Shown here one piece after another: positions 351 through 52,555 of a DNA stretch of 64,000 bases. This DNA is from Elusimicrobiota bacterium (GTDB lineage: Bacteria > Elusimicrobiota > UBA8919). Both the position numbers and the translations under genes were made by a program. Numbering within the stretch: position 1 is the stretch's first letter; the number at the start of each line of letters is the position of its first letter. Below the pieces are notes generated by a model. That model was given only the letters and a program-made list of their open reading frames with translations. It was not told the origin of the DNA and searched no databases. Location of the stretch: contig JBFLWK010000001.1 in assembly GCA_040757695.1 (NCBI GenBank), forward strand, positions 89,758 through 153,757, read 5' to 3'.

Positions 351-953
351 TTACTTTTCGGCGACAACAAGTTGATAGAATATCGGTCCAAACCTTTCAG
401 TTAATTTTACATAGAATTTATTCTCAACTAACAGTGTTTTCAATTGCTTAAAATTATATCTCCTTAAATGGTCGTTCGGCTTGAACCTTAAAAAAGTAGC
501 TATTTTATCAAGAAACGGGTCAACCGCAGTCAATACAATCAGTCCATTTTTTTTTAACACACGATAACTCTCTGAGAGCACTTTTCGGACATCGGTCACA
601 TGCTCAATTACCGATGCGATAATAACTATATCAAACTCGTTCTCATTAAACGGAAGATTCTCACCGTAACCGGCTAAAAGTTCTATATACGTGTCTTTTT
701 TTGCTAACCGAAGTTCATCCGAGGGCTCTATTCCGACTGCTTTTTTTAACTGTAACTCAGCGTTTAACCTGCTTAACATCTCGCCATCAGCCGCACCAAT
801 ATCAAGCACCTGTAAGCCCGGTTTGTAATTTTTTTTTAGTATTCCTAAAACTTTTTCGGTTCTTTTACGAAGCCGGTATCTGGTAAAAAGATTCTTCTGC
901 CGTTTCCTAAGATAACTTGTCATCGTTAAAAAAGCCTCGCTAACGCTCGGCAA
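351..953 (-). CDS. Class I SAM-dependent methyltransferase (type 11 domain)
   Basis: VLDIGAADGEML is a glycine-rich SAM-binding motif I, followed by the acidic loop IVIIASVIEHV; 200 aa. Confidence 0.7.
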   Translation of the reverse strand: MPSVSEAFLTMTSYLRKRQKNLFTRYRLRKRTEKVLGILKKNYKPGLQVLDIGAADGEMLSRLNAELQLKKAVGIEPSDELRLAKKDTYIELLAGYGENLPFNENEFDIVIIASVIEHVTDVRKVLSESYRVLKKNGLIVLTAVDPFLDKIATFLRFKPNDHLRRYNFKQLKTLLVENKFYVKLTERFGPIFYQLVVAEK

Positions 954-1209
954 CCCGCAGAAACCGCAGAATACCCGCAGATTACGCAGAGATTTTTATC
1001 TCTTTCTGCGGACTCTGCGGCTTTTCTGCGTAATCAGCGGACAATACTACAGCGAACACAGAGATTTATTTCTTTTTCAATTTAAGAAACTGTATTACAA
1101 CCAAACTGTCTAATGAAACCAATCCGCATAGTACTGCTGCATCAAAAGGCGTATTTATCACCTTAACCAAGTGTAAAACCAGAAACAAAATCGTTCCCAT
1201 TAGTTTTTT

Positions 1210-2318: not shown

Positions 2319-4529
2319 CTTTAAAGCAGAAACAGTTTTTAAACTTCTGAACATAACGCCTAAAGTGAACTTTGACTTCCCGAAAATTCTGTCGTGATAG
2401 ATTATTGGAATCTCTTTTATTTTTAACCCGTTTCTGACCGCTTTATAGACCGTTTCTATAAGCACTGATGTGCCTTCAACGGACCGAACTGAATCCATGT
2501 TTATGGATTCAATTGCTCCACGGCTGTAACACCTGAATCCTGATGTGCAATCAAAAATACCGTTAAGTTTAAGTTTATTCCTGACATATAAATTGGCAAG
2601 CCAACTTGCCGATTTTCTTAAAATACTTCTGCCTGTCTCGGCGCCACCTGGGACATATCTTGAGCCGATAACTATATCAAAATAATGTATCCAGTAAAGA
2701 AATTCTGAAATATAGCCAGGGTCATGCGATAAATCCGCATCCATCTCTATGATTGTCTCCGCACCTGTAGATAATGCAGCTGAAAAACCGGCTTTAACCG
2801 CGAGACCTCTTTCATTCCAGTGATTATATTTTTTACTTTTTAGAAGATGTACCTGTGGATATAAAACCGAGAATTGTTGAACTGCTACACCGGTGTCATC
2901 AGTAGAATTATGGTCAACAACATATATCCGAATTGACGGGTACAACACAATAATTTTTTTCAATAAGCCGAGTATATTGTCTCGCTCGTTGAATGCCGGG
3001 ATAACAACAGCGACTTTTGTAACAGGTTCAGTTATTATATTTTTATGTAACTGCTGATGGGCTAATTTTTGGATAAACCTTGAGCCCATAGCAATACTAA
3101 CATCCGTATAAAAATAATGAAAAACCATTCTGATAGCAACTTTTATATATCTTGCCAGTTCACTGAAAGATTTTGTTCGTTGAAGCGTTTGAAAAATATA
3201 GCCGGGTCTGAAATAGAAACTGTAATATGCCCGTTTTAATAGTTTCTCTATTTTTGCTTGATTCATTCTTACCCATGGTGTAGGGATTCGCTGTTCGCCA
3301 AGTTTCATCAAAACAAAATCACGCCAGTAATCAGTGCCTGTATTTTTTACCAGTTGTTTATGAAGTTCGGTAGCGGGTTTCGCAATTGTTCTACAAATCT
3401 GAACATAGTCAAGCGCCAATTTTTTAGCGAATTTTACTGTATCGGTTACCGTATCTTCCGTATCGCCAGGGTTGCCTATCATCAAGAATCCAAGATTTCT
3501 TATGCCGAATTTTTTAGCTGTTTTTATAACAACCGCCGTTCTGTTGTGTGTTATTCCTTTATTCACTTCATTCAGTACCTTTTGCGAACTGGATTCTATA
3601 CCCCAGAAAATCATCCTGCAACCGGATAAAGATGCTTCTTTTAAGATTTCGTCGTCAACAACATCAACTCGCGTTCTGCAACTCCATTGGATATCAAGAT
3701 GCCGGTTTCGTATTTCCTGAAATAGTTTGATAGATTTCTGTTTGTCCACAAAAAAAGTAGCATCAAAAAAGTCAATCTCTCTTACACCATAATCATAATA
3801 ACATTCTTCTATTTCGCGGATAACATTTTCCCAGGTTCTCTCTCGGTAATGGTTTAGTGCAGCGATTGCGCAGAACCTGCATCTATACGGGCAGCCGGTA
3901 GAAGTAAGCATAACGGTAAAATTCTTATTTTGTGAAACAAAAGAATGATAGCGGTCGTTCGGCAGAAGATGTCTTGCCGGGAATGGATAAGTATCAAAAT
4001 TAACCAGTTCTGTATCTGGTGGATTGATATGAACTCCACCATTATTATCGCGCCAGCATAACCCTGGAATATTTTGATACGGTTCTGAATTTTCTAAATT
4101 CCGAATAAACTGCGGTAATGTGCGAACCGCCTCGCCAATCAGCCCGAAATCAATCTCTTTATGCGACATTGTCTCAGTCGGATAAAGTGACATATTTATC
4201 CCGCCGACAAGCACAGGCAATCCCGTTGCGAGTTTCAAATACTGTATCCATTCCAATGTCTCCTGAAAATTGTATGTATCCAGCCGGAATGCAATCAGGT
4301 TGGTGTTAAACATTTTTATTTTTTTCAGGACCTGCTCTTTTGATAACCCGAGTGCATGCGCATCTATTAAGATAACATCATTCCCAGCATGCTCTAAAAT
4401 CGAGGATACATAGGCAAGAATAATCGGCGGTGATAGAGTGAATTCCTCGTCTACAACTTTCAGGTTTTCAGAAAATTTCCTATGATGAAACGGCGGAAAA
4501 ATTAGCGCTACTCGCATAGCAAACACCAT
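2310..4529 (-). CDS. Fusion protein: B12-binding domain + radical SAM core + C-terminal GT2 (DPM1/polyprenyl-phosphate sugar synthase-like) glycosyltransferase
   Basis: N-terminal Rossmann-like B12-binding region (RVALIFPP...LIDAHAL), then rSAM CxxxCxxC (TSTGCPYRCRFCAIA). The C-terminal ~230 aa form a GT-A fold: VAVVIPAFNERDNI...DHNSTDDT...EMDADLSHDP...IVIGSRY. Confidence 0.75.
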   Translation of the reverse strand: MVFAMRVALIFPPFHHRKFSENLKVVDEEFTLSPPIILAYVSSILEHAGNDVILIDAHALGLSKEQVLKKIKMFNTNLIAFRLDTYNFQETLEWIQYLKLATGLPVLVGGINMSLYPTETMSHKEIDFGLIGEAVRTLPQFIRNLENSEPYQNIPGLCWRDNNGGVHINPPDTELVNFDTYPFPARHLLPNDRYHSFVSQNKNFTVMLTSTGCPYRCRFCAIAALNHYRERTWENVIREIEECYYDYGVREIDFFDATFFVDKQKSIKLFQEIRNRHLDIQWSCRTRVDVVDDEILKEASLSGCRMIFWGIESSSQKVLNEVNKGITHNRTAVVIKTAKKFGIRNLGFLMIGNPGDTEDTVTDTVKFAKKLALDYVQICRTIAKPATELHKQLVKNTGTDYWRDFVLMKLGEQRIPTPWVRMNQAKIEKLLKRAYYSFYFRPGYIFQTLQRTKSFSELARYIKVAIRMVFHYFYTDVSIAMGSRFIQKLAHQQLHKNIITEPVTKVAVVIPAFNERDNILGLLKKIIVLYPSIRIYVVDHNSTDDTGVAVQQFSVLYPQVHLLKSKKYNHWNERGLAVKAGFSAALSTGAETIIEMDADLSHDPGYISEFLYWIHYFDIVIGSRYVPGGAETGRSILRKSASWLANLYVRNKLKLNGIFDCTSGFRCYSRGAIESINMDSVRSVEGTSVLIETVYKAVRNGLKIKEIPIIYHDRIFGKSKFTLGVMFRSLKTVSALKRP

Positions 4530-4581
4530 CCTTTTTTATTAAGTTCTTTAATTTAACCACGAAAACACGAAAACACGAAAT

Positions 4582-6804: not shown

Positions 6805-6899
6805 AATAACTTATAACCCATCACTCACATATTGAGATTTTTTATTCATTGTAAGTAATCGGTTATTAGTTATCACATTAACTGCCGGGTGTTCGGGTA

Positions 6900-7514
6900 T
6901 TAAAGCCGAAGGTTGTGGAAACGGTAGTAAAGGCAAGGTGATAAGGTGATAAGGTGATAAGGTGATAAGTAAAAACAAGGAAGTAAAACAACAAAACCTA
7001 AAAGAAGCAAGAATAGTTTTTCAAAAAATTTCTTTAAAACCGTAAATATAACTGCTAAATCTGCAATCTGCAATCTGCAATCTGCAATCTTCAAATAGTG
7101 TTTAGCCACTGTGAATAACTTCTGGAGCAAATTCACAACCAGGATTTGTGAATGAACCGGTGTATTGAATGTCAGTGTGATGAGTGAACTCAAAAAAAGC
7201 GTCCGAAGTCCGAGGCCGGGGATTCGAGACCTGTCATTCTGAGCCGAAGGCGAAGAATCTTGTGTGTTAACACCAGGATTCTTCACTTCGCTGACGCTCC
7301 GTTCAGAATGACAACCTTCTACTCGCAACTCGCTACTCGCTACTTGCTGGTTTTGGGTATCTCTTTCATCCAGACCGCTGTCCCAATTCTTGATTGCCTG
7401 TTTTACTTCATTAGGGCAATTGGGATTGATAGTATTTGCAAAACAAAAAGCACTCGCTAACCCTATTAAGAAAGCGGCAGAAACTATAATAATAATAATT
7501 TCTCGTTTTGACAT
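6900..7514 (-). CDS. Hypothetical small secreted/membrane protein. Only the N-terminal ~60-100 aa look genuine; the 3' part of the ORF runs through SSRs and an inverted-repeat element.
   Basis: N-terminus MSKREIIIIIVSAAFLIGLASAFCFANTINPNCPNEV looks like a signal/TM segment followed by a Cys-containing mature region. The downstream part of the ORF spans the palindromic element at ~7232-7313 and (aatctgc)n / (ggtgataa)n repeats, so the true stop is doubtful. Confidence 0.25.
   Translation of the reverse strand: MSKREIIIIIVSAAFLIGLASAFCFANTINPNCPNEVKQAIKNWDSGLDERDTQNQQVASSELRVEGCHSERSVSEVKNPGVNTQDSSPSAQNDRSRIPGLGLRTLFLSSLITLTFNTPVHSQILVVNLLQKLFTVAKHYLKIADCRLQIADLAVIFTVLKKFFEKLFLLLLGFVVLLPCFYLSPYHLITLSPCLYYRFHNLRL
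7057..7093. repeat. 5× AATCTGC heptanucleotide repeat, with 3× GGTGATAA octamer repeat at 6948-6971, in the 5' region ~150-290 nt upstream of the GT2 gene at 5776-6804
   Basis: ctgcaatctgcaatctgcaatctgcaatct; ggtgataaggtgataaggtgataagg. Confidence 0.8.
7232..7313. repeat. Large imperfect inverted repeat: TGTCATTCTGAGCCGAAGGCGAAGAATC ... GATTCTTCACTTCGCTGACGCTCCGTTCAGAATGACA
   Basis: The two arms share the termini TGTCATTCTGA and GAAGAATC in opposite orientation. A related element is at 40419-40495. Confidence 0.6.
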
Positions 7515-8036
7515 TTTTTGTTCAATCCTTTTTTTTCGGCAGTCAAGCCTCCAAAAATAGCAAATAGCTTCTGGCTTATAGCATATAGTTTTTATAGAAC
7601 TATTCTGCGAAACTTTACCCCGTATCTAATACGGGGCGATGCTAAAGCCTCGTAGAATAAAACCTTACCGAAATTGCAAACTGTTACAGAACCACATTTG
7701 CTATTTTCGTTTAACTATACTTACATCGGCTCGGTACTATGGTACTATAATTATAAAGAATTTTTTGAATTTTGTCAATTACTTTTTTTGTAGTTTCTGT
7801 AGTCAAAAAGAAAACAAGATAACACAGTCTGAAGCCTGCGGCTACCAACCAACAAGGTAGCCGCTCCGATAAATCGGAGCCGCAAAGGACGGTAGAAAGC
7901 TTTTAATTGAAATTTCTGGGTTAAAAAGAAGTGTAAGCACGAAACAAGCGAGCAACCACGAGCAGCAGTGTGTCTCCCGATATTCATCGGGTTCGCAATG
8001 ATACAGGAAATAGATGTCAACCAATTTTGTGGATAT

Positions 8037-8890: not shown

Positions 8891-10095
8891 CCAATTTTAT
8901 CGCGTTTTCTTAATACCTCCCACTTTTTTTCTTCAGCCAGTACTTCTACAAGATGGGGTCGCAGGTTATAATTTGACGACATTGAATACCCGTAGGCACC
9001 AGCGCATAAGATAGCAAGAAAATCATTTTCTAAAACCGGCGGTATTGTTCTATCTTTTGCAAAAATATCCGACGATTCGCAAACAGGTCCTACAATATCC
9101 CATTTATGTGTTGTCCCTTCTCTTCTTACAATCGGGATTATTTCGTGATATGCATTATACATCGCAGGACGGAGTAAATCATTCATTCCAGCATCAACTA
9201 TTAAAAAATTCTTTTTTGCTGTTTTTTTGATATAAATTATTCTTGTCACTAATATGCCGGATTCACCGACAATAAATCTGCCCGGTTCTAAAATAACGGT
9301 ACGCTTTGGGGGTAGGTTTGACATAATCGCATCTGCATAGTCCGTTGGATTGATTATTTTCTCATCCTTATATTTTATTCCAAGCCCACCACCCATATCA
9401 ATATATTTCAGTTTTATTCCGTCTTCTGAAAGTTTTTTAATATAGCATCCTACTTTTCGGGAGGCAAGCACAAACGAGTCTAAATCAGTTATTTGGGAAC
9501 CAATATGAATATGAAGTCCGACGATACTGATATTTTTAAGCGATTTTGCTAAAATATAGCCCTCTTTTGCTTCTTCAAATGAAAGTCCAAACTTGTTATG
9601 TAAAAGCCCTGTTGTAATATGCGGATGTGTTCTGGGATTTATATCCGGATTCACTCTGAACGAGATTCTCGCAATTCTGCCGACTGATTTTGCAATTTTG
9701 TTAATTTTGTATAATTCCGGAATAGATTCAACATTAAACATTAAAATATCCTGTTTGATTGCTTCTTTAATTTCATCATCTCTCTTCCCGACACCAGCAA
9801 ACACTATTTTTTGACAACTGATACCACATGATATTGCAAGTTTTAACTCGCCAGATGAAACAATATCACAACCACACCCGTTTTTAGCAAGAATTTTTAA
9901 TAGTTTCGGATTAGCGTTCGCCTTGACTGCATAGCATATAATATGTTTTGTTTTTGAGAATGCGATATCAAGCAGTTTATAATTTTCCAGAATTTTATTT
10001 TTGCTGTAAATATAAACTGGAGTGCCAACTTTATTTGCAATCTCTAAAACTGAAACACCATCCATCAATAACAAACCGTTTTCATACTTTAGCAT
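8884..10095 (-). CDS. lysA: Diaminopimelate decarboxylase
   Basis: PLP-fold motifs YAVKANANPKLLKILA, HIHIGSQ, EPGRFIVGESG, CESSD; 403 aa. Confidence 0.9.
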   Translation of the reverse strand: MLKYENGLLLMDGVSVLEIANKVGTPVYIYSKNKILENYKLLDIAFSKTKHIICYAVKANANPKLLKILAKNGCGCDIVSSGELKLAISCGISCQKIVFAGVGKRDDEIKEAIKQDILMFNVESIPELYKINKIAKSVGRIARISFRVNPDINPRTHPHITTGLLHNKFGLSFEEAKEGYILAKSLKNISIVGLHIHIGSQITDLDSFVLASRKVGCYIKKLSEDGIKLKYIDMGGGLGIKYKDEKIINPTDYADAIMSNLPPKRTVILEPGRFIVGESGILVTRIIYIKKTAKKNFLIVDAGMNDLLRPAMYNAYHEIIPIVRREGTTHKWDIVGPVCESSDIFAKDRTIPPVLENDFLAILCAGAYGYSMSSNYNLRPHLVEVLAEEKKWEVLRKRDKIGM

Positions 10096-10139
10096 ATTTA
10101 TCCTTTTTAAGTTAGTCAGGGCTTCGCCCTGAAACCTGT

Positions 10140-10285
10140 TTTTGACTAGATTAACAGGATTTTATTTTTTGCTACTGAATTTCACTGAAATATTTTCAAA
10201 TCTAAATTCTGTGTATTTCTGTGTGATTCTGTGGCTTGTGTATTTCTGTGGCTGTCTTTTTATCCTGTAAATCCTGTCAGAATCT
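10140..10285. promoter_or_regulatory. Second occurrence of the ATCCTGTAAATCCTGTCAGAA motif (plus ttgactagattaacaggatt) in the lysA 5' region
   Basis: ...ctttttatcctgtaaatcctgtcagaatcttttt...; 19/19 identical to the 2262-2280 copy. Confidence 0.5.
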
Positions 10286-10462
10286 TTTTTTGCCGACTGA
10301 AGTCGGGTATAAATCTTTTTTTCAGTGTTTTCAGTGGTTCCGTGGTGAAAAGAACCAAAACGGTGATTAAAAATCACCGACTACAATTCATACGTTTTCA
10401 GCAAAATTGAACTGTTACCACTGATTAGCATGTTGGTTTTATCTGTGTAATAGAGAAATTTG

Positions 10463-11341
10463 TCATTCAATATATTTCTGTAAAGCAATTGCAAGTTTTT
10501 TAGAAAGCGTGTTTTCTTCGGTATTTAACAAAACTGCCAGATTTTTTTTAGCTTCTGCGATATTATTCTTTTTTAGATAAGTTAGTGCAACTAAAAAATG
10601 CGCATTCACCGCTGTAAAGTTAGAAATTGCGATATCTGGATTTTTTTTCATATTAATATATCCTTCTAAAATTCGGGAATCAAACGATGTAGTAAAAAAT
10701 GGTTCTGATTCAGCATATTTACCAGTTAAAACATTCAACTGTAAAATACTGTTTTTTATACTATCGGTTGGACATAGTGCCAGCGCCCTTTTGTATAAAT
10801 CAATAGCTTCGTTATCTCGCCCGGTATTTTTATAAATAACCGCAAGCCCGTTTAATGCTTCAATACTGCTGTTATCAAGTTGCAGTACTTTTTTATAGTA
10901 TTCTTCTGCCTTTTCGTATAGCAATTTTTTATAATAAACCGCACCCAGCCCGAGATAAATCCGTATATCTTTTGAGCCGTATTTTAATGCTTTATTATAT
11001 TCAAAAATCGCTTCATTATGCATATCAGCACCGCGATATGCCTCCCCTAATTTTAGAAGGACAACCGGGTTTTTTTTCTTAATTTTTTTGGCATCAGTAT
11101 AAAATGTAATTGCATAACTGTACTCGCCACGCATTAAATACTCATCACCTTTAGAGATATAGAATCTAATTTTTTCTTTTTTTGATTCTGCATATAAAAA
11201 GATGGAAAGATAGAAAGATAGAAAGATGGAAAGATAGAGAGATGGAAAGATAGAAAGATGGAAAGATAGAAAGGAAAATCTATTGCCCAACCACCTAGCC
11301 ATCTTACCATCTATCCATCTATTAGAATAGTATTTTTTCAT
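10463..11341 (-). CDS. TPR-repeat protein with a repeat-encoded hydrophobic N-terminus
   Basis: Several TPR-like segments (AITFYTDAKKI..., LYEKAEEYYKKVLQLD...). The N-terminal FSFLSFHLSIFPSLYLSIFLSFYLSIFLY is encoded by 8-nt tandem repeats (agatRgaa)n at ~11199-11275. Confidence 0.5.
   Translation of the reverse strand: MKKYYSNRWIDGKMARWLGNRFSFLSFHLSIFPSLYLSIFLSFYLSIFLYAESKKEKIRFYISKGDEYLMRGEYSYAITFYTDAKKIKKKNPVVLLKLGEAYRGADMHNEAIFEYNKALKYGSKDIRIYLGLGAVYYKKLLYEKAEEYYKKVLQLDNSSIEALNGLAVIYKNTGRDNEAIDLYKRALALCPTDSIKNSILQLNVLTGKYAESEPFFTTSFDSRILEGYINMKKNPDIAISNFTAVNAHFLVALTYLKKNNIAEAKKNLAVLLNTEENTLSKKLAIALQKYIE
11199..11275. repeat. Tandem octanucleotide repeats (AGATAGAA/AGATGGAA, ~9 units) inside the 5' coding end of the TPR gene
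   Basis: Read directly from the sequence. The unit length is not a multiple of 3 and gives an 8-aa periodic hydrophobic peptide. Confidence 0.8.
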
Positions 11342-12294
11342 TTTAGAAATACTATTTTATCAATAAACTTTTCAAGTATTTTATCTTTGATAGCATTCGC
11401 CTTACTTCTTGTGGCAACAAGCCCTGCCTCTATACATTCTGCTGACCTGTCAAGTTCTATCATACTCACATTTTTTATATTCGGTATTATTACAAAATCG
11501 GCATTTTTTATCTGATTAGATACCAGGAATCCAGCTTGAATATTTATCGCCTGAATGAGTGTTTTCATAACATTATCTATATTAAATAATGAATAATCTA
11601 CCTGTGGCCAGACAGCAATTACAAAATCGGCAGCCATTACTTTTGCGATATCAATCGGTAGATTATCAACCAACCCGCCGTCTACAAGCAGCCGATGTCG
11701 GTATTCAACCGGCTTAAAGAGACCCGGGATTATTGCAGAAGCACGCATTGCAAATGCTGCCTCGCCTTCCTTAAAAACGATTCGTTCACCAGTTTTTATA
11801 TCACAGGCGATACAGGCAAACGAAATTTTTAACTCGTCAAACCTTTTTTGCCTGATATGTTTTTCCAGATATTTTTCAAGTTTTTCTGTGCTTAACAGCG
11901 ATTCCGCAGTAATAAGTGTTAGCAGTTTAGTTGCTGAAAGATTTGATATTTTATTCCAGCCAATATCAGTCCCTATCCGTTCTATATCAGTTATCGCCAT
12001 ACCTGTCGCATAGAGCCCGCCAACAAGCGCACCGGCACTGGTACCAACAATAATATCAGTCGGTATATTATTTTCTTGAAGCACCTTTAAGACGCCGATA
12101 TGACTCAGACCTCGTGCGCCGCCACCACCTAATACTACCGCGATTTTAGGCCGCTTAGAGTTCAATGCTAAAAAATCTTTCCATAATAAATCTCTTAATA
12201 AATTATCAGATTGAGCATAAAGGCAGGTAAAAGGTAAAAGGTAAAAGGTAAAAAGTAAAAGGTAAAATCTCAAACTGCGAAGAACAGGATACAT
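11338..12294 (-). CDS. Patatin-like phospholipase
   Basis: GGGARG oxyanion motif, GTSAGA (GxSxG nucleophile elbow), DGGLVDN (catalytic Asp). The signal peptide RFYLLLFTFYLLPFTCLYAQ is encoded by heptamer repeats. Confidence 0.8.
   Translation of the reverse strand: MYPVLRSLRFYLLLFTFYLLPFTCLYAQSDNLLRDLLWKDFLALNSKRPKIAVVLGGGGARGLSHIGVLKVLQENNIPTDIIVGTSAGALVGGLYATGMAITDIERIGTDIGWNKISNLSATKLLTLITAESLLSTEKLEKYLEKHIRQKRFDELKISFACIACDIKTGERIVFKEGEAAFAMRASAIIPGLFKPVEYRHRLLVDGGLVDNLPIDIAKVMAADFVIAVWPQVDYSLFNIDNVMKTLIQAINIQAGFLVSNQIKNADFVIIPNIKNVSMIELDRSAECIEAGLVATRSKANAIKDKILEKFIDKIVFLK
12226..12268. repeat. 6× GGTAAAA heptanucleotide tandem repeat (coding strand TTTTACC) encoding FYLLPFT in the signal peptide of the patatin gene
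   Basis: ggtaaaaggtaaaaggtaaaaggtaaaaagtaaaaggtaaaa. The 7-nt unit is in frame only in multiples of three units. Confidence 0.85.
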
Positions 12295-12297
12295 TTT

Positions 12298-13593
12298 TTA
12301 TTCAATAATTTTGCCGATACTGGTTTCTAAATTGATTTTTGCGATTATAACATCTTTCAATGCATCAATATATTCAAGTTGGATATTCATCGCTGTCTCT
12401 AACATTTCAATAAACTCAAGATATGTAAGTTCTTTTAATACCTCATCTGTTACAGTTGTAGCAAGTTGTTCTTTTTCGTTAGTTTTTTGTTCAAACTTTT
12501 TAACTGCAAACTCGTAATCAACAAAACATTTTCTTACCTCGGCCTGGATTGAGTCGGTAATACTTGCTCGGTTAATCTGTGTTTTTCTATATTGGTACTT
12601 TTTTTGTTTTATTCGGGCAAACTGACCAAAACCATCAAATATCGGTAGTGTAAAATTTATAGTTGCATTCCACGCTCTTTTTTCAAATGGCAACTGTCTA
12701 TCTTCAAGTTGATAGTTGCCACCGAGTGTAATTATAGGATACCTGCCGGATAATGATAGGTTTACTGAAAGCGCATCCATCTGTTCCTGAAGTTGCGTTT
12801 TTTTAAGTTCAGGCCGATATTCAAGCGCCCAGGCAATGCATTTATTGAGGTCTACCACAGCCTTTTTGTGCTCTAACTCGCCTTTGATTGTGAATATCGT
12901 ATTTAACTCTATCCCGATAGAATCAAGAAAATCAATTTCTGCCAGTTCCAGTTCTTTCTGGTTTTTGGTTTCTGCTGATTTTATTTTTTCAATTTTTTTT
13001 TCAGATATAAATCTGTCTTTAGGGTTTAAAGACTCATTTTTTCTATTTGATATTTTTTCAATAGTTGCTTTATAAATCTCAACTTTTTTCTGGATTGATA
13101 GAAGTGTATAGAAATTTTTTTTAGCCGATGAGCCTGTTTTGTTTTTGATTACCTCGTAATCACTTTCAGCCGATTTCAATTCTGTTTCTGCAAACTTCTT
13201 TGTAGCAGAAATTTTGGCACCACTCCATAATATCTGATAGAGCGAAATTTTGGCTGTATAATAATCTTCAATGTTATCAACCAGTGGCTCAATTTTTTGT
13301 GGCAGGATAGTGTTGCCCAAAATAGGCGAAATCAACAGCGGGCTTTCGGCTTTGAATTTGGAATAGTTGGCGTTGAACTCCAATTGCGGATACATTATTG
13401 ACCGCGCTTCTTTCAGCCGTTGTCTGGCAATCTCTATATCCTGTCGGGCGGATAGAAGTTGCTGGTTGTTTGAAATCGCAAGATTAACACTATCGTCAAC
13501 TGTTAAAACTCTTTCTACAAGTTGCTGGGAATAGAGACAGGTAAAAGGTAAAAGGTAAAAGGTAAAAGGTAAAAGGTAAAAAAATTTTTTCAT
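12298..13593 (-). CDS. TolC-like outer membrane efflux protein (OEP family)
   Basis: Signal peptide, then a TolC-type N-terminus LTVDDSVNLAISNNQQLLSARQDIEIARQRLKEARSIMYPQLEFNANYSK; two-repeat coiled-coil architecture; 431 aa. Confidence 0.65.
   Translation of the reverse strand: MKKFFYLLPFTFYLLPFTCLYSQQLVERVLTVDDSVNLAISNNQQLLSARQDIEIARQRLKEARSIMYPQLEFNANYSKFKAESPLLISPILGNTILPQKIEPLVDNIEDYYTAKISLYQILWSGAKISATKKFAETELKSAESDYEVIKNKTGSSAKKNFYTLLSIQKKVEIYKATIEKISNRKNESLNPKDRFISEKKIEKIKSAETKNQKELELAEIDFLDSIGIELNTIFTIKGELEHKKAVVDLNKCIAWALEYRPELKKTQLQEQMDALSVNLSLSGRYPIITLGGNYQLEDRQLPFEKRAWNATINFTLPIFDGFGQFARIKQKKYQYRKTQINRASITDSIQAEVRKCFVDYEFAVKKFEQKTNEKEQLATTVTDEVLKELTYLEFIEMLETAMNIQLEYIDALKDVIIAKINLETSIGKIIE
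13540..13581. repeat. 6× GGTAAAA heptanucleotide repeat encoding FYLLPFTFYLLPFT in the TolC-like signal peptide
   Basis: Near-identical ~50-nt cassette (acag + 6 units + aaaaattttttCAT) to those at 12226 and 20440. Confidence 0.85.
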
Positions 13594-14939
13594 AATCTTT
13601 TAAGTTGCTGTTTTACAGATGATAGCGATGTGCCGCCGTAGGATTTTCTTTTTTCAACAGATTTCCTGAAGTTTAACATATCAAAAACTGACCTGTCAAA
13701 TTTTTCAGAAAATTTTTTCCATTCTGTAATTGATAAGTCATCAAACTTTTTCTGGTTTTTTATACAATAATCCACAAGTTTAGCAACAATACTATGCGAT
13801 GTTCTAAACGGAAGCCCTTTGCAAACAAGATAATCAGCAATATCAGTCGCAAGAATAAAGCCATTCTTACAGGCAGAAAGCATTCTGTCAGGGTTAAGTT
13901 TCATTTCTGAAACCATTCCCGCACAAATATCAAGTATATTTTCTATTGTCTCAGCAGACGAAAAAAGCGGTTCCTTATCTTCCTGCATATCCCTGTTGTA
14001 AGATAACGGAAGCCCTTTCATAACGGTTAAAAACGAAATTAAATTACCGTAAATTCTGCCTGTTTTTGCTCTCACAAGTTCTGCAAAATCCGGGTTTTGT
14101 TTCTGCGGCATCACAGATGAACCTGTTGTAAATTTTGCTGAAAGTTTTATAAATCCAAACTGCTGTGAAGACCATATAACAATTTCTTCAGCAAGCCGTG
14201 AGCAATGCATTGACACTACTGCGCAATCAAACAAAAACTCAATTATGAAATCTCTATCAGCAACGGCATCCACAGAGTTTTCTGAAATTTTTGAGAATCC
14301 TAACTGGCTGGCAACAAAATTTCTGTCAATATTGAACTCTGTTCCTGCAAACGCTGCAGAACCTAACGGACAGATATCAATCCTTTTATAGCAGTCATAA
14401 AACCGTTCTTTATCCCGTTTTAACATCCACACATATGCGAGAAACCAGTGACTGAATAATACCGCCTGTGCATTTTGCAGATGTGTAAATCCGGGCATAA
14501 TTATATTTAAATTTTTTTGAGCAATTTTTTTGAGCATACTGATTGCCTTATCTATTTTTTCAATAATTATCTTTATCTCGTCTTTCAAATAAAGCCGTTC
14601 ATCAAGCGCCACCTGGTCATTTCTGCTTCTTGCAGTATGCATTTTGCCAGCAACATTACCGATTCTTTTTTTGAGTTCTACCTCTATTGAAGTATGAATA
14701 TCTTCATCAGTAAATCTTAATTTACCAGCATTGAAATCTTTCAAGATTGAGTTAAGCCCGTTGATAATTTTTGTGGCTTCTTTTTGTGTAACAATTTTGC
14801 ATTTAGCAAGCATTTTTACATGCGCAATGCTCCCTAAAATATCATACTTCGCAAGTTTTACATCGTAAGAAATTGATGAGACAAACTTTTTTAGTTCCAT
14901 AATACCTGTTAACAGCAAATTCCAAATTCTAAATTCCAA
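13590..14939 (-). CDS. argH: Argininosuccinate lyase
   Basis: Fumarate-lyase signature GSSVMPQKQNPD; SRNDQV; 449 aa; adjacent to argG. Confidence 0.85.
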   Translation of the reverse strand: MEFRIWNLLLTGIMELKKFVSSISYDVKLAKYDILGSIAHVKMLAKCKIVTQKEATKIINGLNSILKDFNAGKLRFTDEDIHTSIEVELKKRIGNVAGKMHTARSRNDQVALDERLYLKDEIKIIIEKIDKAISMLKKIAQKNLNIIMPGFTHLQNAQAVLFSHWFLAYVWMLKRDKERFYDCYKRIDICPLGSAAFAGTEFNIDRNFVASQLGFSKISENSVDAVADRDFIIEFLFDCAVVSMHCSRLAEEIVIWSSQQFGFIKLSAKFTTGSSVMPQKQNPDFAELVRAKTGRIYGNLISFLTVMKGLPLSYNRDMQEDKEPLFSSAETIENILDICAGMVSEMKLNPDRMLSACKNGFILATDIADYLVCKGLPFRTSHSIVAKLVDYCIKNQKKFDDLSITEWKKFSEKFDRSVFDMLNFRKSVEKRKSYGGTSLSSVKQQLKRL

Positions 14940-18352: not shown

Positions 18353-20493
18353 TATTTCTCAGGCAGATTAAATAAATCAATTTTTAGGTTCTGGTTAAAA
18401 TACAACTTTTTAAGCAACAAGTTAGTTTTTACATTAAGCGTGGGATTACTAAAATCAAGCCGATGCGGAAAAATTATTCTGCCGGCTGGTTTATAGTCGG
18501 CAAATTGTATCACAGAACCGTTGTCAAACTCCAGTTCGGTAATTGTATGCGATTTCTTGTCAATTTTTAAGTTGACAGTACTATTTTTAAAACTATAAAG
18601 ATTTTTTTCTTCATTCACAAAATTCAGTTCATCAAAACATTCGGTATCAAAAATCTTGAAAATATCTCTAACCCAGCAAAAGTCGCTAGTTAAGTCATAC
18701 ATTGTTTGAGATGGTGTAATATACACGATTGTCCCCTGTCGTAATAGAATAAGCCCTTGCGGGACTGAAAACAGCCCTAAAATTTCTACTCTGAGTTGTT
18801 TAGGTTTCTTGAAGAAAAACGGGCCATTGATACTGTAGGATTTGTTTTTATAGTTAGTTGTGGCTTTTACAAAGCCGGCAATATCTTGCAGGTTTTTGAA
18901 ACATTTTAACGCACGATTTTTTACCATTTCCGACGACCATTCCAGATTTTTTTTATATTTTCTTATTTTGTTTTCTATCAGTTTATTTCTTTCTAACTCT
19001 AATAACAATGCGGTTTCCCAGTTGTCAACCGCATTCTGAACATCGCCAACAGATAAGTAGCAATCGCCGAGATGGTCAAAAATTATAGGGTCATCCAATT
19101 TCTCAGATGCTTTTTTTAACAATTTTAATGCCTCGTCATATTCTGCCCGACGATAATACACCCAGCCAAGCGAATCAATATATGCGGGATTTTCAGGTTC
19201 TAACTCTAACGCTTGTTTAATAAACTGTTCTGCTTCTACAAGTTTTACATTCTTATCCGCCCAGGTATAGCCAAGATAATTATACGCCTGCGAAGTGGTT
19301 GTATCTATTTCTATAACCTTAAAAAACGATTGCTCTGCCAAAGCCCATTTTTTCAGTTTATCATAAACCACACCGAGTTCAAAATGATATTTAGCATTTT
19401 GTGGCTCCATTTTGAGTGCTTTGTTAAGATATTTTTCTGCTTTCTTGTAGTTATTCAGAACCTCGTAATTCATCGCCAGAAAAAAATATACATCCGGATT
19501 TTCAGAACCTAACCTGATTGCTTGTTCAAACGATTTTACTGCCTGTTTGGTATTTTCTAAAATTGTAAAAATATAGCCCTTCTGTATGTATGGTTCAGGC
19601 AATTTTTTGTTTAGATGAATTGAATGGTCAAAATATTTTAGTGCCTCATCATATTTTTTTTCATCAAGCGCAATCAAGCCAAGATAGTAATCAACCCAGT
19701 GATTTGTTGGAATAGTTTCTTTTATTTTTAACAGATATTTTTTAGCAGTTAATAAATCCTTATTAAGAATTGAAAGCCCGGCAATTTTTAGCATAGGTTC
19801 GGTATCTTCAGGAAAGATATTAAGTAATTTCTCGTATAATTCAATTGCTTTTTTGTAGTCCTTTTTTTCTTCGTAAATCCCAGCAAGCGCAACCAATGGA
19901 ACAATAGAATTGGAGTCCATCTCATATGCTTTTTTAAGATACGATTCGGCTTCAACGGGCTTATTAAGTTTGTGATACAGAATTCCGATACTTACATAGA
20001 TTTCTGGTGATTCCGGCTGTAACTGAAGATATTTTTCAAAATATGTAATTGCTTTTTCGTAATTTTTAATTTCAGCATATAGAACAGCCAGGTTATAAAG
20101 TGCTTTTTCATTTGCTGGTTCTGTTGACAAAATTTTTTCATATGCAGAGATAGCATCTTCAGGTTTTTTTTGATAAACCGATATTTCGGCAATAAGTTCA
20201 GTTGTTAATTTATCTTCAGGCTGCTGTCTGGCTATTTCAGAAATCAGTTCAGATGCGGAGTTTATATCGCCTGTTAGAAAATAGAGGCTCAGCAGTTGTT
20301 TTTTGAGATATATTGAAGCAGAATCATACACTGCAGATTTTTTATACTCGTCTATCGCTTTTTTAGAATCACCCATCAGTTCTGCGATATTGCCTAAAAT
20401 ATAATGATAGTATGCATCGGATTGGGCAGAATGAAGACAGGTAAAAGGTAAAAGGTAAAAGGTAAAAGGTAAAAGGTAAAAATACTTTTTCAT
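18352..20493 (-). CDS. TPR-repeat secreted protein with a C-terminal LolA-like/lipoprotein-sorting-like domain
   Basis: At least ten TPR units (AISAYEKILSTEP..., AITYFEKYLQLQP..., etc.). Signal peptide MKKYFYLLPFTFYLLPFTCLHSAQ encoded by heptamer repeats. C-terminal domain assignment is low-confidence. Confidence 0.6.
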   Translation of the reverse strand: MKKYFYLLPFTFYLLPFTCLHSAQSDAYYHYILGNIAELMGDSKKAIDEYKKSAVYDSASIYLKKQLLSLYFLTGDINSASELISEIARQQPEDKLTTELIAEISVYQKKPEDAISAYEKILSTEPANEKALYNLAVLYAEIKNYEKAITYFEKYLQLQPESPEIYVSIGILYHKLNKPVEAESYLKKAYEMDSNSIVPLVALAGIYEEKKDYKKAIELYEKLLNIFPEDTEPMLKIAGLSILNKDLLTAKKYLLKIKETIPTNHWVDYYLGLIALDEKKYDEALKYFDHSIHLNKKLPEPYIQKGYIFTILENTKQAVKSFEQAIRLGSENPDVYFFLAMNYEVLNNYKKAEKYLNKALKMEPQNAKYHFELGVVYDKLKKWALAEQSFFKVIEIDTTTSQAYNYLGYTWADKNVKLVEAEQFIKQALELEPENPAYIDSLGWVYYRRAEYDEALKLLKKASEKLDDPIIFDHLGDCYLSVGDVQNAVDNWETALLLELERNKLIENKIRKYKKNLEWSSEMVKNRALKCFKNLQDIAGFVKATTNYKNKSYSINGPFFFKKPKQLRVEILGLFSVPQGLILLRQGTIVYITPSQTMYDLTSDFCWVRDIFKIFDTECFDELNFVNEEKNLYSFKNSTVNLKIDKKSHTITELEFDNGSVIQFADYKPAGRIIFPHRLDFSNPTLNVKTNLLLKKLYFNQNLKIDLFNLPEK
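20440..20481. repeat. 6× GGTAAAA heptanucleotide repeat in the signal-peptide codons of the TPR gene
   Basis: aggtaaaaggtaaaaggtaaaaggtaaaaggtaaaaa; same cassette as at 12226 and 13540. Confidence 0.85.
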
Positions 20494-25777: not shown

Positions 25778-27363
25778 CGTATCTCGTAAATTGTAAATTT
25801 TTCTACCGGTATTCTTGAGAATGAATACGGCAGTAGCCCATACATATTTAAGTGAAAACCTGCCTGTGCTAACGGACTCATCGTTTTGAATGGATTCTTC
25901 GTTAGTATATACTTTTGTTCAACAAGTTTTAATCTTTTAACAATCACAGGATGAATTTTCTGCGGAACTGGTAAAACAGGGCAGACAATCAAAGAACCAC
26001 TCGCATAATTCTTACTGTCTGATTCTACCGCATAAAATCCATTTCTTTCCATATAATACTGAAACCCAAGATGTCCTGTAAAATAGACACTTTTGTCAGC
26101 GTATCCTTTTTTGATATATTCTGAAATGTTTCTATATGAATTGGCTAAAATATAATCTGATTGTGCAATCAAAAACGATAAAATAAGCCCGATAATAACC
26201 GTGGTAATCAAAAATATTTTATGTTTTAGGCATATGTCTGAAATTTTTACAAAAAGCAAAATTACAGGCGGCAAAAGTGGTAACAGATACCTGACTGCGA
26301 TTATTGCTGAAACTGCTACAAAAAAAAATAGATACAAAAAAAACCAGCTCACCAGAAAAATTATTTCTTTTTGATAATCCCATTTTTTAAGCGAGCGAAT
26401 AAAAACAAAAAACAAAAGAATTGCTGACGAGCTAAAAAGTCCAAAAAGAAAATTTTGTAGTTTAGTGTATCCAAGTAAATCAAAAAAAAAGGTTCCTGTT
26501 GCAAAAACTACTAAAAAAAGCCAGACAGCACTTTTTTTTAACTGGTAACCTAACCATAATATACTCAATGGAAAAACAAAAGCACCACCAATATAAGTAA
26601 GTAGTGGGATTTCTTTTACAAGCCCAAAAGAGATACCAATACTGACTGATTTTTTCAGAATCTGGAGTTCGTTATAAACAAATTTGTTATGTAATGACCA
26701 TGCAACTAAAAAAAGAATCGGAATTATAAAAAAACCGATATTTTTTTTCAGGGTTTTATTCAGCAGAAACCAAACAAAAAGCAGTCCGAGATTTATTAAT
26801 GCTACAAATTTTATTAAAATTGTAAACCCGAGCAGGAGCCAGCCTAAATATTTTTCACGAATACAAAAATAAATTCCCCATACTGAAAATGTAATCAGCG
26901 GTACATCCAGCATTATATCGGTTGCATTTACAAAAAACGCAGGACTTGCTATCAAAAGAAGCGCAGAAAAAAGTGGATCTGTTTTCAACTTTCTCGCCAA
27001 AAAATACATACCCACAACGGAAAGTATCGCAAAACAAAGAAATGCCAAATGCAGTGCTTTTTCATTTTCGCCGAAAATTTTTATAACACCTGCCAGAAAA
27101 TACGATATAAGCGGAGGATTATTAGCAACATCCCATCCTGAATAATTTTTGTCAGCACAATTTATTGTGAAACTAAACGGTTTTGCTGGCTCCTTTAGAA
27201 TCTGCCTGGCAGTGTAAATATAAAATATAGCATCAGAAGAAATTGCTTTATTATAAAATGGGAATAAAAGCAAAAATGTTAAAAAGCAGAGAAATCTGAT
27301 TTCCGAACATTTGTTCGGTTTTGTATTTCCGAACATTTGTTCGGTTTTATTTGAAATGGTCAT
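25774..27363 (-). CDS. GT-C family glycosyltransferase, ArnT/PMT-like; start uncertain
   Basis: DAIFYIYTARQI...NPPLISYFLAG (KPPL-like motif), at least 11 TM helices. Its first ~20 codons contain two CGAACATTTGTTCG palindromes and overlap the thiL stop. Confidence 0.55.
   Translation of the reverse strand: MTISNKTEQMFGNTKPNKCSEIRFLCFLTFLLLFPFYNKAISSDAIFYIYTARQILKEPAKPFSFTINCADKNYSGWDVANNPPLISYFLAGVIKIFGENEKALHLAFLCFAILSVVGMYFLARKLKTDPLFSALLLIASPAFFVNATDIMLDVPLITFSVWGIYFCIREKYLGWLLLGFTILIKFVALINLGLLFVWFLLNKTLKKNIGFFIIPILFLVAWSLHNKFVYNELQILKKSVSIGISFGLVKEIPLLTYIGGAFVFPLSILWLGYQLKKSAVWLFLVVFATGTFFFDLLGYTKLQNFLFGLFSSSAILLFFVFIRSLKKWDYQKEIIFLVSWFFLYLFFFVAVSAIIAVRYLLPLLPPVILLFVKISDICLKHKIFLITTVIIGLILSFLIAQSDYILANSYRNISEYIKKGYADKSVYFTGHLGFQYYMERNGFYAVESDSKNYASGSLIVCPVLPVPQKIHPVIVKRLKLVEQKYILTKNPFKTMSPLAQAGFHLNMYGLLPYSFSRIPVEKFTIYEIR
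27303..27344. promoter_or_regulatory. Tandem pair of Cheo-box-like palindromes CCGAACATTTGTTCGG (CGAAC-N4-GTTCG), 26 nt apart, directly after the thiL stop and at the 5' end of the GT-C gene
   Basis: Read from the sequence: tttccgaacatttgttcggttttgtatttccgaacatttgttcggtttt. It matches the LexA/DinR operator consensus CGAACRNRYGTTCG of Firmicutes-type SOS boxes. Confidence 0.55.
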
Positions 27364-45932: not shown

Positions 45933-46006
45933 AAACGGTAACTAAAAATTATAAATTAAAAATGTAAAATTATGGAATTTATTTTCAGTCTTCAATTTTT
46001 CATTTT

Positions 46007-52507: not shown

Positions 52508-52518
52508 AATTTTTAAAC

Positions 52519-52555
52519 CCTAAACTCTAAACTCTAAACTCTAAACTCTAAACTC
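52519..52555. repeat. 5× TAAACTC heptanucleotide repeat spanning the stop codon of the DUF4381-like gene, ~25 nt upstream of the batA start
   Basis: ctaaactctaaactctaaactctaaactctaaactccc. On the coding strand this is (GAGTTTA)n, encoding ...SLEFRV with stop TAG inside the repeat. Confidence 0.8.

What the first reader, a model, noticed from the sequence alone, without database searches (positions are those of the whole stretch)
11199..11275. Octanucleotide (AGATRGAA)n repeats form the hydrophobic N-terminus of a TPR protein
About nine 8-nt units encode LSIFPSLYLSIFLSFYLSIFLY. The unit length is again not a multiple of three, so this has the same phase-variation potential, and it adds a second repeat family (8-nt) used to build signal or TM segments.
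Basis: seen in the sequence. Interest (0 to 1): 0.5.

Follow-up and report, generated by a model that had tools for sequence, protein, structure and literature searches.

The report
Microsatellite-built export signal of TPR protein
The 8-base repeat is real and encodes the hydrophobic core of a protein-export signal; a whole group of uncultured Elusimicrobiota builds and quickly replaces export signals from such 7- or 8-base repeats, but rapid on/off switching of this gene is not shown.

Summary
Observation confirmed. 11194..11273 holds ten 8-nt units, better described as a 16-nt unit x4.8 at 93% identity; none is expected by chance. On the minus strand they encode aa 23-50 of a 292-aa TPR protein. 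Orthologues show this is a Sec-type export signal (MKK, periodic hydrophobic core, (C)LY[AS], then D/E/Q).

It encodes the charged n-region and pairs with the hydrophobic array in a long mRNA hairpin (z = -5).

Seven envelope proteins in the window, and the OEP/patatin/TPR trio in nine related species, carry such arrays. Cytoplasmic neighbours carry none. Signal peptides turn over far faster than mature proteins (99% vs 37% identity).

Phase variation is only partly supported:
- For: two related assemblies with 0 SNPs in 15.85 kb differ only by two heptamers, which frameshifts the TPR orthologue.
- Against: this array is interrupted (at most 2.9 perfect copies). Nearly all of roughly three dozen orthologous alleles inspected are in frame. 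Housekeeping genes (LptA-like, OEP) carry arrays. Strain sets 0.05-0.6% apart show no array change.
- Untested: no second assembly of this species exists.

Verdict: a new variant of the opa/oipA principle, more likely a mutational hot spot than a proven switch.

The parts
10463..11341 (-). Gene for a 292-aa TPR protein, the last exported gene of a conserved argG-argH-OEP-patatin-TPR block. Its ATG at 11341..11339 overlaps the TGA of the patatin-like gene (ATGA).
   Evidence: ORF list and sequence; Pfam TPR families; identical protein annotated in an Elusimicrobiota MAG (P0001); synteny in 9 species.
11289..11321 (-). n-region array: (AGATGGNN)x4, purine-rich, encoding aa 7-18 RWIDGKMARWLG. It is the reverse complement of the core of the h-region unit (AGATGG / CCATCT, and CTATCT via G.U).
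   Evidence: TRF period 8 x4.1; register listing; pairs with the h-array in the MFE fold, z = -5.0 and z = -7.7 against mononucleotide shuffles.
11274..11288 (-). Spacer between the two arrays (aa ~19-22, GNRF). It forms the apical part of the predicted hairpin.
   Evidence: Sequence and fold.
11194..11273 (-). h-region array, the finding itself: ten 8-nt units alternating TTTCTATC / TTTCCATC (effective 16-nt unit), encoding aa 23-50 FLSFHLSIFPSLYLSIFLSFYLSIFLY. It is open and hydrophobic in all three sense frames and has stops in the antisense frames.
11189..11197 (-). Predicted c-region L49-Y50-A51. The inferred signal-peptidase I site lies between A51 and E52, and the mature protein would start ESKKEKI.
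   Evidence: Orthologue alignment: all N-termini end in (C)L[YFH][AS], followed by D/E/Q/N, just before the conserved SKKEKI block. Cleavage itself is inferred, not shown.
12225..12267 (-). Same class: TTTTACC x6 (one mismatch) encoding the h-region of the patatin-like protein (RFYLLLFTFYLLPFTCLYAQ).
13539..13581 (-). Same class: perfect TTTTACC x6.1 (43 nt) encoding the h-region of the TolC-like OEP (MKKFFYLLPFTFYLLPFTCLYSQ).
20439..20481 (-). Same class: perfect TTTTACC x6.1 encoding the h-region of a 713-aa TPR protein.
43616..43693 (-). Same architecture: an 8-nt n-array (GTTAAGTG-like, 43657..43693) and an inverted 8-nt h-array (TATTCACT-like, 43616..43653) at the N-terminus of an LptA/LptC-like protein.
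   Evidence: (hairpin z = -2.8).
47908..47939 (-). Same class: TGCAATC x4.6 (perfect over 32 nt) encoding the h-region of a TPR+SH3 protein.
49692..49803 (-). Same architecture: a 7-nt n-array (AGTCAGA x5.7, 49764..49803; SEVRNQRSEVRSQ) and an inverted 7-nt h-array (CTTTCTT-like x10, 49692..49762) at the N-terminus of a BatD protein.
   Evidence: (hairpin z = -3.8).

Best explanation
The octamer array is the coding sequence of the hydrophobic core (h-region) of a Sec-type export signal. The export signal itself is a product of microsatellite dynamics. In this clade of Elusimicrobiota, export signals of envelope proteins are made from T-rich 7- or 8-nt units. Because the unit length is not a multiple of three, every unit is read in all three frames in turn. 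A T-rich unit without stop codons therefore gives a periodic, moderately hydrophobic peptide of 7 or 8 residues. Replication slippage expands, contracts and homogenises these arrays, so the signal peptide is replaced much faster than the mature protein evolves. Selection keeps the total length in frame and the conserved (C)LYA cleavage motif in place. In this gene the array has grown to ten units (about 29 residues, roughly twice the length in orthologues), has since been interrupted by point changes, and is currently in frame. An inverted copy of the same unit family lies upstream. It supplies the positively charged n-region, because purine-rich complements of hydrophobic codons encode K/R/D/E/G, and it base-pairs with the h-array in the mRNA. 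A slip of 8 or 16 nt would abolish the exported protein, and a slip of 24 nt would only resize the h-region. This makes the array a mutational hot spot that can inactivate or retune export. I see it as a slowly ticking evolutionary feature rather than a demonstrated high-frequency switch. Shown: the array, its frame, its position, clade-wide recurrence, restriction to exported proteins, rapid turnover, and one natural 2-unit frameshifting variant in a relative. Inferred: Sec export and cleavage after A51, slippage as the mechanism, and the inverted array arising as an inverted duplication.
For: The array is real and non-random. It is in frame with a TPR protein whose start (ATGA overlap, MKK) matches the orthologues, and weak Shine-Dalgarno use is normal in this genome. 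All three sense frames of the array are open and hydrophobic. Fourteen orthologues align only from SKKEKI onward. Their N-termini share MKK, a periodic hydrophobic stretch and CLY[AS][DE], but use different units such as TTTTACC, TTTTTAA, TTACTCAC, CTTTCTAC and TTTCTACC. In 9 species only OEP, patatin and TPR carry arrays; ArgG, ArgH, LysA, DapF and the MFS transporter carry none. In the window 10 of 19 arrays lie in the first 60 codons, against 15.5% of the sequence space (P = 1.9e-4). All seven carriers belong to envelope families. Turnover is fast: OEP pairs are 99% identical in the mature part but 37% in the signal peptide, and 94% vs 13%. In pairs 10-13% diverged, 25-78% of indel events fall in the 7-12% of sequence that encodes signal peptides. 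There is unit-level concerted change, TTTTACC vs TTTCTACC, between loci 87% identical. Count change is seen directly: L003 has 6 units and L002 has 4, with 0 SNPs in 15.85 kb, and the 4-unit allele is out of frame. Hairpins have z = -5.0, -2.8 and -3.8.
Against: There is no experimental or predictor-based proof of export or cleavage. A 29-residue h-region is long for a cleaved signal peptide. The same heptamer (TTTTACC) in three genes of this genome and in another species' TPR gene is not obviously expected from independent slippage; it may point to exchange between signal peptides or to strong constraint on allowed units. The single count variant could be an assembler artefact, since one partner is an older UBA assembly. 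Slippage as the mechanism is inferred, not measured.
Confidence: 0.6

Rival explanations
1. Active phase-variable (contingency) locus. The array slips at high frequency, so the population always contains cells with and without exported TPR protein, as with Neisseria opa or Helicobacter oipA.
For: The unit length is not a multiple of three and lies in the 5' coding region. Changes of +/-8 or +/-16 nt truncate the product. A 2-unit change with 0 SNPs over 15.85 kb was found in the orthologous gene of a relative. Several assemblies break, have N-gaps or become chimeric at arrays (L111, L113, L011), as expected if reads are heterogeneous. The opa precedent switches at about 1e-3 per cell per generation (PMC3960869).
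Against: This array has at most 2.9 perfect 8-nt copies or 2.1 perfect 16-nt copies. Nearly all of the roughly three dozen orthologous alleles inspected are in frame. No array change is seen among 6 assemblies of one species or in a pair 0.6% apart with 68 SNPs. Arrays also sit in LptA-like and OEP genes, which are normally housekeeping. No second assembly of this species exists.
Confidence: 0.2
2. The functional unit is the mRNA hairpin. The n-array and h-array are kept complementary because the stem, placed just after the start codon, tunes translation initiation or elongation of exported proteins (for example to couple synthesis to targeting) or stabilises the polycistronic mRNA.
For: The long imperfect hairpins have z = -5.0, -2.8 and -3.8. 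The same n/h complementarity recurs in other genes and species with unrelated units (L003 OEP, L097 TPR). The sense strand folds better than the antisense strand in 5 of 5 well-formed cases, by up to 22 kcal/mol, through G.U pairs.
Against: Four of the seven array-bearing genes in the window have no inverted partner and no structure. The G.U bias can be explained by protein-level selection for NTN codons in the h-region. A similar inverted-array hairpin is intergenic at 953..1040 (z = -5.4), which suggests a general mutational product. No alignment is possible between species, so there is no covariation test. The hairpin is not terminator-like.
Confidence: 0.15
3. The expanded array has turned the cleavable signal peptide into an uncleaved N-terminal membrane anchor, so this TPR protein is tethered to the inner membrane, unlike its orthologues.
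For: The h-region is about 29 residues here, against 14-16 in orthologues. The window protein also lacks the roughly 18-residue linker (DMEKTAEEKAAISYTTTAK) that follows the cleavage site in most orthologues.
Against: The LYA motif is retained directly before the conserved mature start. The segment is only moderately hydrophobic (Kyte-Doolittle 12-residue maximum 2.09, against more than 3 for the polytopic membrane proteins of the window) and is rich in S, P, H and Y.
Confidence: 0.2
4. The array is not translated. The true start lies downstream and the repeats are a 5'-UTR or intercistronic element, or an assembly artefact.
For: Gene callers started several orthologues at the internal Met (P0004, P0006, P0007, P0028, P0032).
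Against: In those cases the upstream frame is open and identical to full-length calls (L004 = L005-L009), or is interrupted by an in-frame insert (L001), or the contig is broken. Only L002 is truly out of frame. The frame is open through every array in 9 species x 3 genes. OEP and LptA-like proteins need an export signal, and no other one is present. The same arrays are seen in independent assemblies.
Confidence: 0.04

Closest known systems
Neisseria opa genes: CTCTT pentamer repeats in the leader-peptide coding region (PMC3960869; that the repeats encode the hydrophobic core is from my own knowledge of Stern et al. 1986)
   Same: A tandem repeat whose unit is not a multiple of three lies inside the signal-peptide coding region. 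It encodes the hydrophobic part of the leader in all three frames. A change in copy number shifts the frame of the mature protein.
   Different: Here the units are 7-8 nt (effectively 16 nt), not 5 nt. The array is interrupted. No switching has been measured. The carriers are periplasmic or outer-membrane housekeeping-type proteins of an environmental, uncultured lineage, not a paralogous adhesin family of a host-adapted pathogen. Nearly all alleles seen are ON. The repeat unit itself is replaced between close relatives. An inverted partner array builds the n-region.
Helicobacter pylori outer-membrane protein genes (oipA and others): CT dinucleotide repeats in the 5' signal-sequence region (PMC10564699, listed)
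   Same: A simple sequence repeat in the signal-sequence coding region causes frameshift on/off by slipped-strand mispairing.
   Different: Those are dinucleotide homogeneous tracts with well-documented on/off status among isolates. They have no inverted arrays and are not a general property of the secretome.
Haemophilus influenzae simple sequence repeats, including heptanucleotide repeats at hmw promoters (PMC2651432, PMC8262952, listed)
   Same: Repeats with units of up to 7 nt act as mutational hot spots for envelope proteins.
   Different: The hmw heptamers are in the promoter and 5' UTR and grade transcription. They are not translated into a signal peptide.
Short tandemly repeated repetitive (STRR) heptanucleotide sequences of heterocystous cyanobacteria (own knowledge, not tested here)
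   Same: Genome-wide abundance of tandem heptamers, which this window also shows (99 TRF rows in 64 kb).
   Different: As far as I know STRR are mostly intergenic and have not been described as building signal peptides. The phylum and the units are unrelated.

Membership tests
Translational SSR phase-variation (contingency) locus | Tandem repeat with a unit not divisible by three, inside the 5' part of the reading frame, so that a change in copy number shifts the frame | tested here: met
   Ten 8-nt units at aa 23-50. Changes of +/-8 or +/-16 nt give 55-71-aa truncated products.
Translational SSR phase-variation (contingency) locus | A long, perfect or near-perfect tract that slips at high frequency | tested here: not met
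   The longest perfect tract is 23 nt (2.9 copies, period 8) or 34 nt (2.1 copies, period 16). Neighbouring heptamer arrays are perfect over 43 nt (6.1 copies).
Translational SSR phase-variation (contingency) locus | Copy-number polymorphism, with ON and OFF alleles, among clonal or near-identical genomes | tested here: inconclusive
   This species has only one assembly. In relatives there is one ON/OFF pair with 0 SNPs in 15.85 kb. There is no change among 6 assemblies of another species or in a pair 0.6% apart. Read-level data are not available with these tools.
Translational SSR phase-variation (contingency) locus | The gene product is dispensable and under fluctuating selection (typically surface-exposed) | tested here: inconclusive
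   The TPR protein has no known function. The same repeat architecture occurs in LptA/LptC-like and TolC-like OEP genes, which are normally housekeeping, and that argues against a general contingency role.
Sec-type (signal peptidase I) signal peptide | Positively charged n-region after the initiator Met | tested here: met
   K2, K3, R8, K13, R15 and R21 against D11. Orthologues start with MKK.
Sec-type (signal peptidase I) signal peptide | Hydrophobic h-region of about 7-20 residues | tested here: inconclusive
   The segment is hydrophobic but about 29 residues long here, against 14-16 in orthologues. The Kyte-Doolittle 12-residue maximum is 2.09.
Sec-type (signal peptidase I) signal peptide | c-region with small residues at -1 and an acceptable residue at -3, followed by the mature protein; cleavage demonstrated | not testable with these tools
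   L-Y-A then E, with A at -1 and L at -3, is conserved as (C)L[YFH][AS] in all orthologues and in OEP and patatin. No signal-peptide predictor or experiment was available.
Lipoprotein (signal peptidase II) signal peptide | Lipobox [LVI][ASTVI][GAS]C with Cys at +1 | tested here: not met
   The window protein has no Cys in aa 1-60. The Cys of orthologues is preceded by FT, FN, TY or ST, not by a lipobox.
Known RNA families (Rfam 15) | A match at or above the family's gathering score | tested here: not met
   Only sub-threshold miRNA-precursor-like hits were found (26.9 bits against a gathering score of 53.5; 24.1 against 70). These reflect a generic long hairpin.
Intrinsic terminator | GC-rich short stem directly followed by a T-run | tested here: not met
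   The scan of 10300..13700 reports no site at 11190..11325.

The most novel reading that the evidence does not exclude
A clade of Elusimicrobiota generates and continually replaces the Sec signal peptides of much of its envelope proteome by expansion of non-triplet microsatellites. Self-complementary n-region and h-region arrays form mRNA hairpins. The system would be functional rather than a passive by-product of slippage. It could act as a population-level switch or tuner of which envelope proteins are exported, or as an RNA-level device coupling translation to export. It might also include exchange of signal-peptide cassettes between genes, since the same TTTTACC array occurs in three genes here and in another species.
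Probability: 0.22. Interest if true: 0.8.

Novelty: new variant of a known kind. Interest (0 to 1): 0.55.

Why it matters
Signal peptides are usually treated as slowly drifting, loosely constrained sequences. Here an entire clade appears to make them from 7-8-nt microsatellites. Three things follow.

- It offers a simple route for the de novo birth and rapid replacement of export signals. Any T-rich unit that is free of stop codons gives a hydrophobic peptide in all three frames, and its reverse complement gives a charged one.
- It puts a frameshift-prone tract at the entry of many envelope genes, including housekeeping ones. That raises the question of how such genomes tolerate or exploit this.
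- It extends the opa/oipA principle, so far known from host-adapted pathogens, to free-living groundwater bacteria.

There is also a practical consequence. These arrays mislead gene callers (starts placed at internal Met codons) and assemblers (breaks, N-gaps and chimeras at arrays), so exported proteins of these MAGs are easily annotated as cytoplasmic.

Tried and rejected
1. Direct comparison of this array's copy number failed. The protein's 90% cluster has one member on one contig, and neither the genome nor the metagenome scan found the species again.
2. "Short" orthologue calls as OFF alleles were mostly rejected.
   - P0028 has DNA identical to the full-length calls.
   - P0004 has an in-frame insert of about 130 nt.
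   - P0006/L011 is a low-coverage chimeric contig.
   - P0007/L111 and P0058/L114 start at a contig end.
   - P0043/L113 has a run of Ns inside the n-array.
   - Only P0032/L002 is a clean frameshift.
3. A shared mobile cassette behind the three TTTTACC arrays was rejected in that form, because the flanks differ on both sides. Exchange limited to the array itself is not excluded.
4. A terminator reading of the hairpin was not supported.
5. No known RNA family matched.
6. The sense-versus-antisense folding test for RNA-level selection showed a sense bias, but I judged it non-decisive because codon-level selection predicts the same bias.
7. Most of the 80 metagenome loci (L013-L089) and L099-L105 are unrelated TPR proteins and were not used.
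8. A MAFFT multiple alignment of six 20-kb loci timed out and was replaced by BLAST comparisons.
9. Literature searches found no description of this phenomenon in Elusimicrobia.
Full report
**1. The observation**

The window has 35% G+C, and all long ORFs lie on the minus strand. Tandem Repeats Finder reports 11194..11273 in two ways: period 8 x10.0 copies (84% matches), and period 16 x4.8 copies (93% matches, unit AAAGATAGAAAGATGG). The three-unit pattern (AGATRGAA)x3, with up to 2 mismatches, matches eight overlapping times there. It matches nowhere else in the window and never in 100 dinucleotide-preserving shuffles.

On the minus strand the array lies in ORF 10463..11341 (292 aa). The protein is a TPR protein. 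It is identical to an annotated protein of an Elusimicrobiota MAG (P0001).

Two refinements are needed.
- The array is interrupted. Units alternate between TTTCTATC and TTTCCATC with further changes. The longest perfect tract is 23 nt at period 8 or 34 nt at period 16.
- Fifteen bases upstream in the same ORF there is a second array in inverted orientation (11289..11321). On the minus strand it reads AGATGGAT AGATGGTA AGATGGCT AGGTGGTT and encodes RWIDGKMARWLG.

**2. What the segment is**

The ATG at 11341 overlaps the stop codon of the upstream patatin-like gene (ATGA) and opens with MKK. Shine-Dalgarno motifs are rare in this genome (11 of 40 genes), and the A/T-rich context of this start is typical.

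Fourteen orthologues (43-58% identical) align with the window protein only from SKKEKI onward. Their N-termini cannot be aligned, but all have the same plan: MKK, a periodic hydrophobic stretch, then (C)L[YFH][AS] followed by D/E/Q/N. That is the n/h/c layout of a Sec signal peptide. In the window protein the motif is L49-Y50-A51, followed by E52.

Cleavage is inferred, not shown. The h-region is about 29 residues here, against 14-16 in orthologues. The window protein also lacks the linker of about 18 residues that follows the motif in most orthologues. An uncleaved anchor therefore remains possible.

No lipobox is present. The array is open and hydrophobic in all three sense frames and has stops on the opposite strand.

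**3. It is not an isolated case**

In the window, seven genes carry 7- or 8-nt arrays in their first 60 codons.
- This TPR gene.
- The patatin-like gene, the TolC-like OEP gene and a 713-aa TPR gene, all with TTTTACC x6.
- An LptA/LptC-like gene, with two inverted 8-nt arrays.
- A TPR+SH3 gene, with TGCAATC x4.6.
- A BatD gene, with two inverted 7-nt arrays.

Ten of the 19 arrays with period 7-8 and at least 4 copies fall in N-terminal coding space, which is only 15.5% of the window (P = 1.9e-4). The encoded segments are moderately hydrophobic. Their Kyte-Doolittle 12-residue maxima are 1.5-2.8, against more than 3 for the polytopic membrane proteins. That fits signal peptides rather than transmembrane helices.

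The block argG-argH-OEP-patatin-TPR-(MFS)-lysA-dapF is conserved in nine further species. In every one of them OEP, patatin and TPR have repeat-encoded N-termini. ArgG, ArgH, LysA, DapF and the MFS transporter do not.

Units differ between species and genes: TTTTACC, TTTTTAA, TTACTAC, TTACTCAC, CTTTCTAC, TTTCTACC, TAATTTG and AAGAGAGC. The window's TTTCTATC/TTTCCATC is one base away from the TTTCTACC-type octamers seen in TPR, patatin and OEP genes of relatives. More distant OEP homologues (P0051, P0054) show no obvious arrays, so the trait looks clade-specific.

**4. Dynamics**

Signal peptides change far faster than the mature proteins.
- OEP pairs are 99% identical in the mature part but 37% in the signal peptide (P0040/P0062), and 94% vs 13% (P0039/P0057).
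- TPR pairs are 88% vs 26-37%.
- In locus pairs 10-13% diverged, the three signal-peptide windows make up 7-12% of the aligned sequence but hold 25-78% of the indel events.
- Two loci 87% identical differ by the unit itself, TTTTACC vs TTTCTACC, in every copy. That is concerted change.

One direct copy-number difference was found. L003 (ENA assembly) and L002 (UBA4817) are identical over 15.85 kb, with 0 SNPs, except for a 14-nt indel. L003 has six TTTTACC-type units in the TPR orthologue and L002 has four. The four-unit allele puts the ATG out of frame with the mature protein, so only the internal Met can be used.

On the other side, six assemblies of another species (4-12 SNPs per 12-20 kb) have identical, degenerate arrays. 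A pair 0.6% apart (68 SNPs) has no array change. Nearly all of the roughly three dozen orthologous gene copies inspected are in frame.

Several other "short" gene calls turned out to be caller choices, broken contigs, an N-gap or in-frame insertions, not frameshifts.

**5. The inverted arrays**

In three window genes, and in several relatives, a purine-rich array precedes the hydrophobic array and is its reverse complement, allowing for G.U pairs.

The mRNA is predicted to form long imperfect hairpins:
- TPR: -44.3 kcal/mol, z = -5.0.
- LptA-like: z = -2.8.
- BatD: z = -3.8.

The sense strand folds better than the antisense strand in all five well-formed cases. The largest gap is L097 TPR, at -45.6 vs -23.5 kcal/mol. 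Selection for T at second codon positions in the h-region predicts the same bias, so I do not count this as proof of an RNA function.

A similar inverted-array hairpin is intergenic at 953..1040 (z = -5.4). Four of the seven array-bearing genes have no partner array. The hairpin is not terminator-like and matches no Rfam family above threshold.

The most economical reading is an inverted duplication of the array. It is tolerated, and useful, because complements of hydrophobic codons encode charged residues suitable for an n-region. A regulatory role is possible but unproven.

**6. Mechanism, as far as it can be committed to**

The array is the h-region of an export signal that was created and resized by slippage of a T-rich non-triplet unit.
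- Shown: position, frame, recurrence, restriction to exported proteins, rapid turnover, and one natural two-unit frameshifting variant in a relative.
- Inferred: Sec export and cleavage after A51, slippage as the process, and an inverted duplication as the origin of the n-array.

For this particular array, +/-8 or +/-16 nt would truncate the product to 55-71 aa, and +/-24 nt would only change the h-region length. The array is interrupted, and arrays also occur in LptA-like and OEP genes. I therefore rate a classical high-frequency contingency switch as the less likely reading (about 0.2). I rate an evolutionary hot spot that occasionally inactivates or retunes export as the more likely one (about 0.6).

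**7. Comparison with what is known**

The principle is that of Neisseria opa. There, CTCTT repeats in the leader-peptide coding region switch at about 1e-3 per cell per generation (PMC3960869). The same principle applies to the CT repeats in Helicobacter outer-membrane protein genes (PMC10564699).

The differences here are:
- unit length of 7-8 nt, effectively 16 nt;
- an interrupted array;
- an environmental, uncultured lineage;
- spread over much of the envelope proteome, including housekeeping-type genes;
- nearly all alleles ON;
- replacement of the unit itself between close relatives;
- paired inverted arrays.

Full-text searches found no description of this in Elusimicrobia.

I file it as a new variant of a known kind. 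Membership in "phase-variable locus" fails the perfect-tract criterion and is untested for polymorphism in this species.

**8. Verdict**

The single array is of moderate interest. The clade-wide habit of building signal peptides from microsatellites, with n/h hairpins and very fast turnover, is the more interesting result and deserves a genome-wide and read-level follow-up.

Noticed in passing
window 27299..27348 and 58029..58061: Doubled palindromes containing CGAACATTTGTTCG (26-nt unit x1.9 and 17-nt unit x1.9). From memory they resemble the Cheo/LexA SOS box CGAACnnnnGTTCG. They lie at gene starts or junctions.
   Followed up: no
window 953..1040: Intergenic pair of inverted 20-nt arrays (CGCAGAA / TTCTGCG cores) folding into a strong hairpin (-46.5 kcal/mol, z = -5.4). 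Related CTGCG-containing short repeats occur at 58292..58330 and 59083..59101. This may be a REP-like family.
   Followed up: partly
L001 531..664; L113 about 6860..6945; L114 1..40: A small MITE-like element (ends GTCAT[GT]CTGA ... TCAGCATGAC ... GTGTCA, about 90-134 nt) is inserted inside TTTTTAAT arrays of the signal-peptide regions of TPR (two genomes) and OEP genes. In the two TPR copies (L001, L113) the reading frame stays open; the OEP copy (L114) is cut by the contig end.
   Followed up: partly
L005 4758..4903 and 7644..7788; L005 11996..12123: A 146-nt repeat occurs both upstream of argG and inside the 5' coding region of the OEP gene, giving a 471-aa OEP with a long N-terminal extension. 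A 127-nt segment is present only in L005 among six assemblies of that species.
   Followed up: no
window 6900..7514: A 204-aa ORF with no Pfam match contains three separate 7/8-nt arrays (6935..6969, 7058..7094, 7319..7348). It may be an array-built secreted protein or non-coding repeat DNA.
   Followed up: no
window 10095..10463: All relatives have an MFS transporter gene between the TPR gene and lysA. The window has only 368 nt there, with short repeats and a terminator-like hairpin at 10379..10361.
   Followed up: no
window 45982..46036 and 52514..52555: Other heptamer arrays lie outside signal peptides. (ATGAAAA)x6 on the gene strand sits about 50 nt upstream of ORF 44874..45932, so each unit contains an ATG. 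(GAGTTTA)x6 spans the junction of ORFs 52534..53478 and 51524..52507.
   Followed up: no
L111 (starts 20 nt before the internal Met), L113 about 4528..4546 (run of N), L011 1..215 (GC-rich foreign sequence): Assemblies tend to break, leave gaps or become chimeric exactly at these arrays. Gene callers often choose the internal Met, so exported proteins of these MAGs can be mis-annotated as lacking signal peptides.
   Followed up: partly
TPR orthologues, alignment A1 columns about 75-95: Most orthologues have a Met directly after the predicted cleavage site (CLYSD-MEK...). In the frameshifted L002 allele this Met is the only usable start and would give a cytoplasmic form. The window protein lacks this segment altogether.
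   Followed up: no
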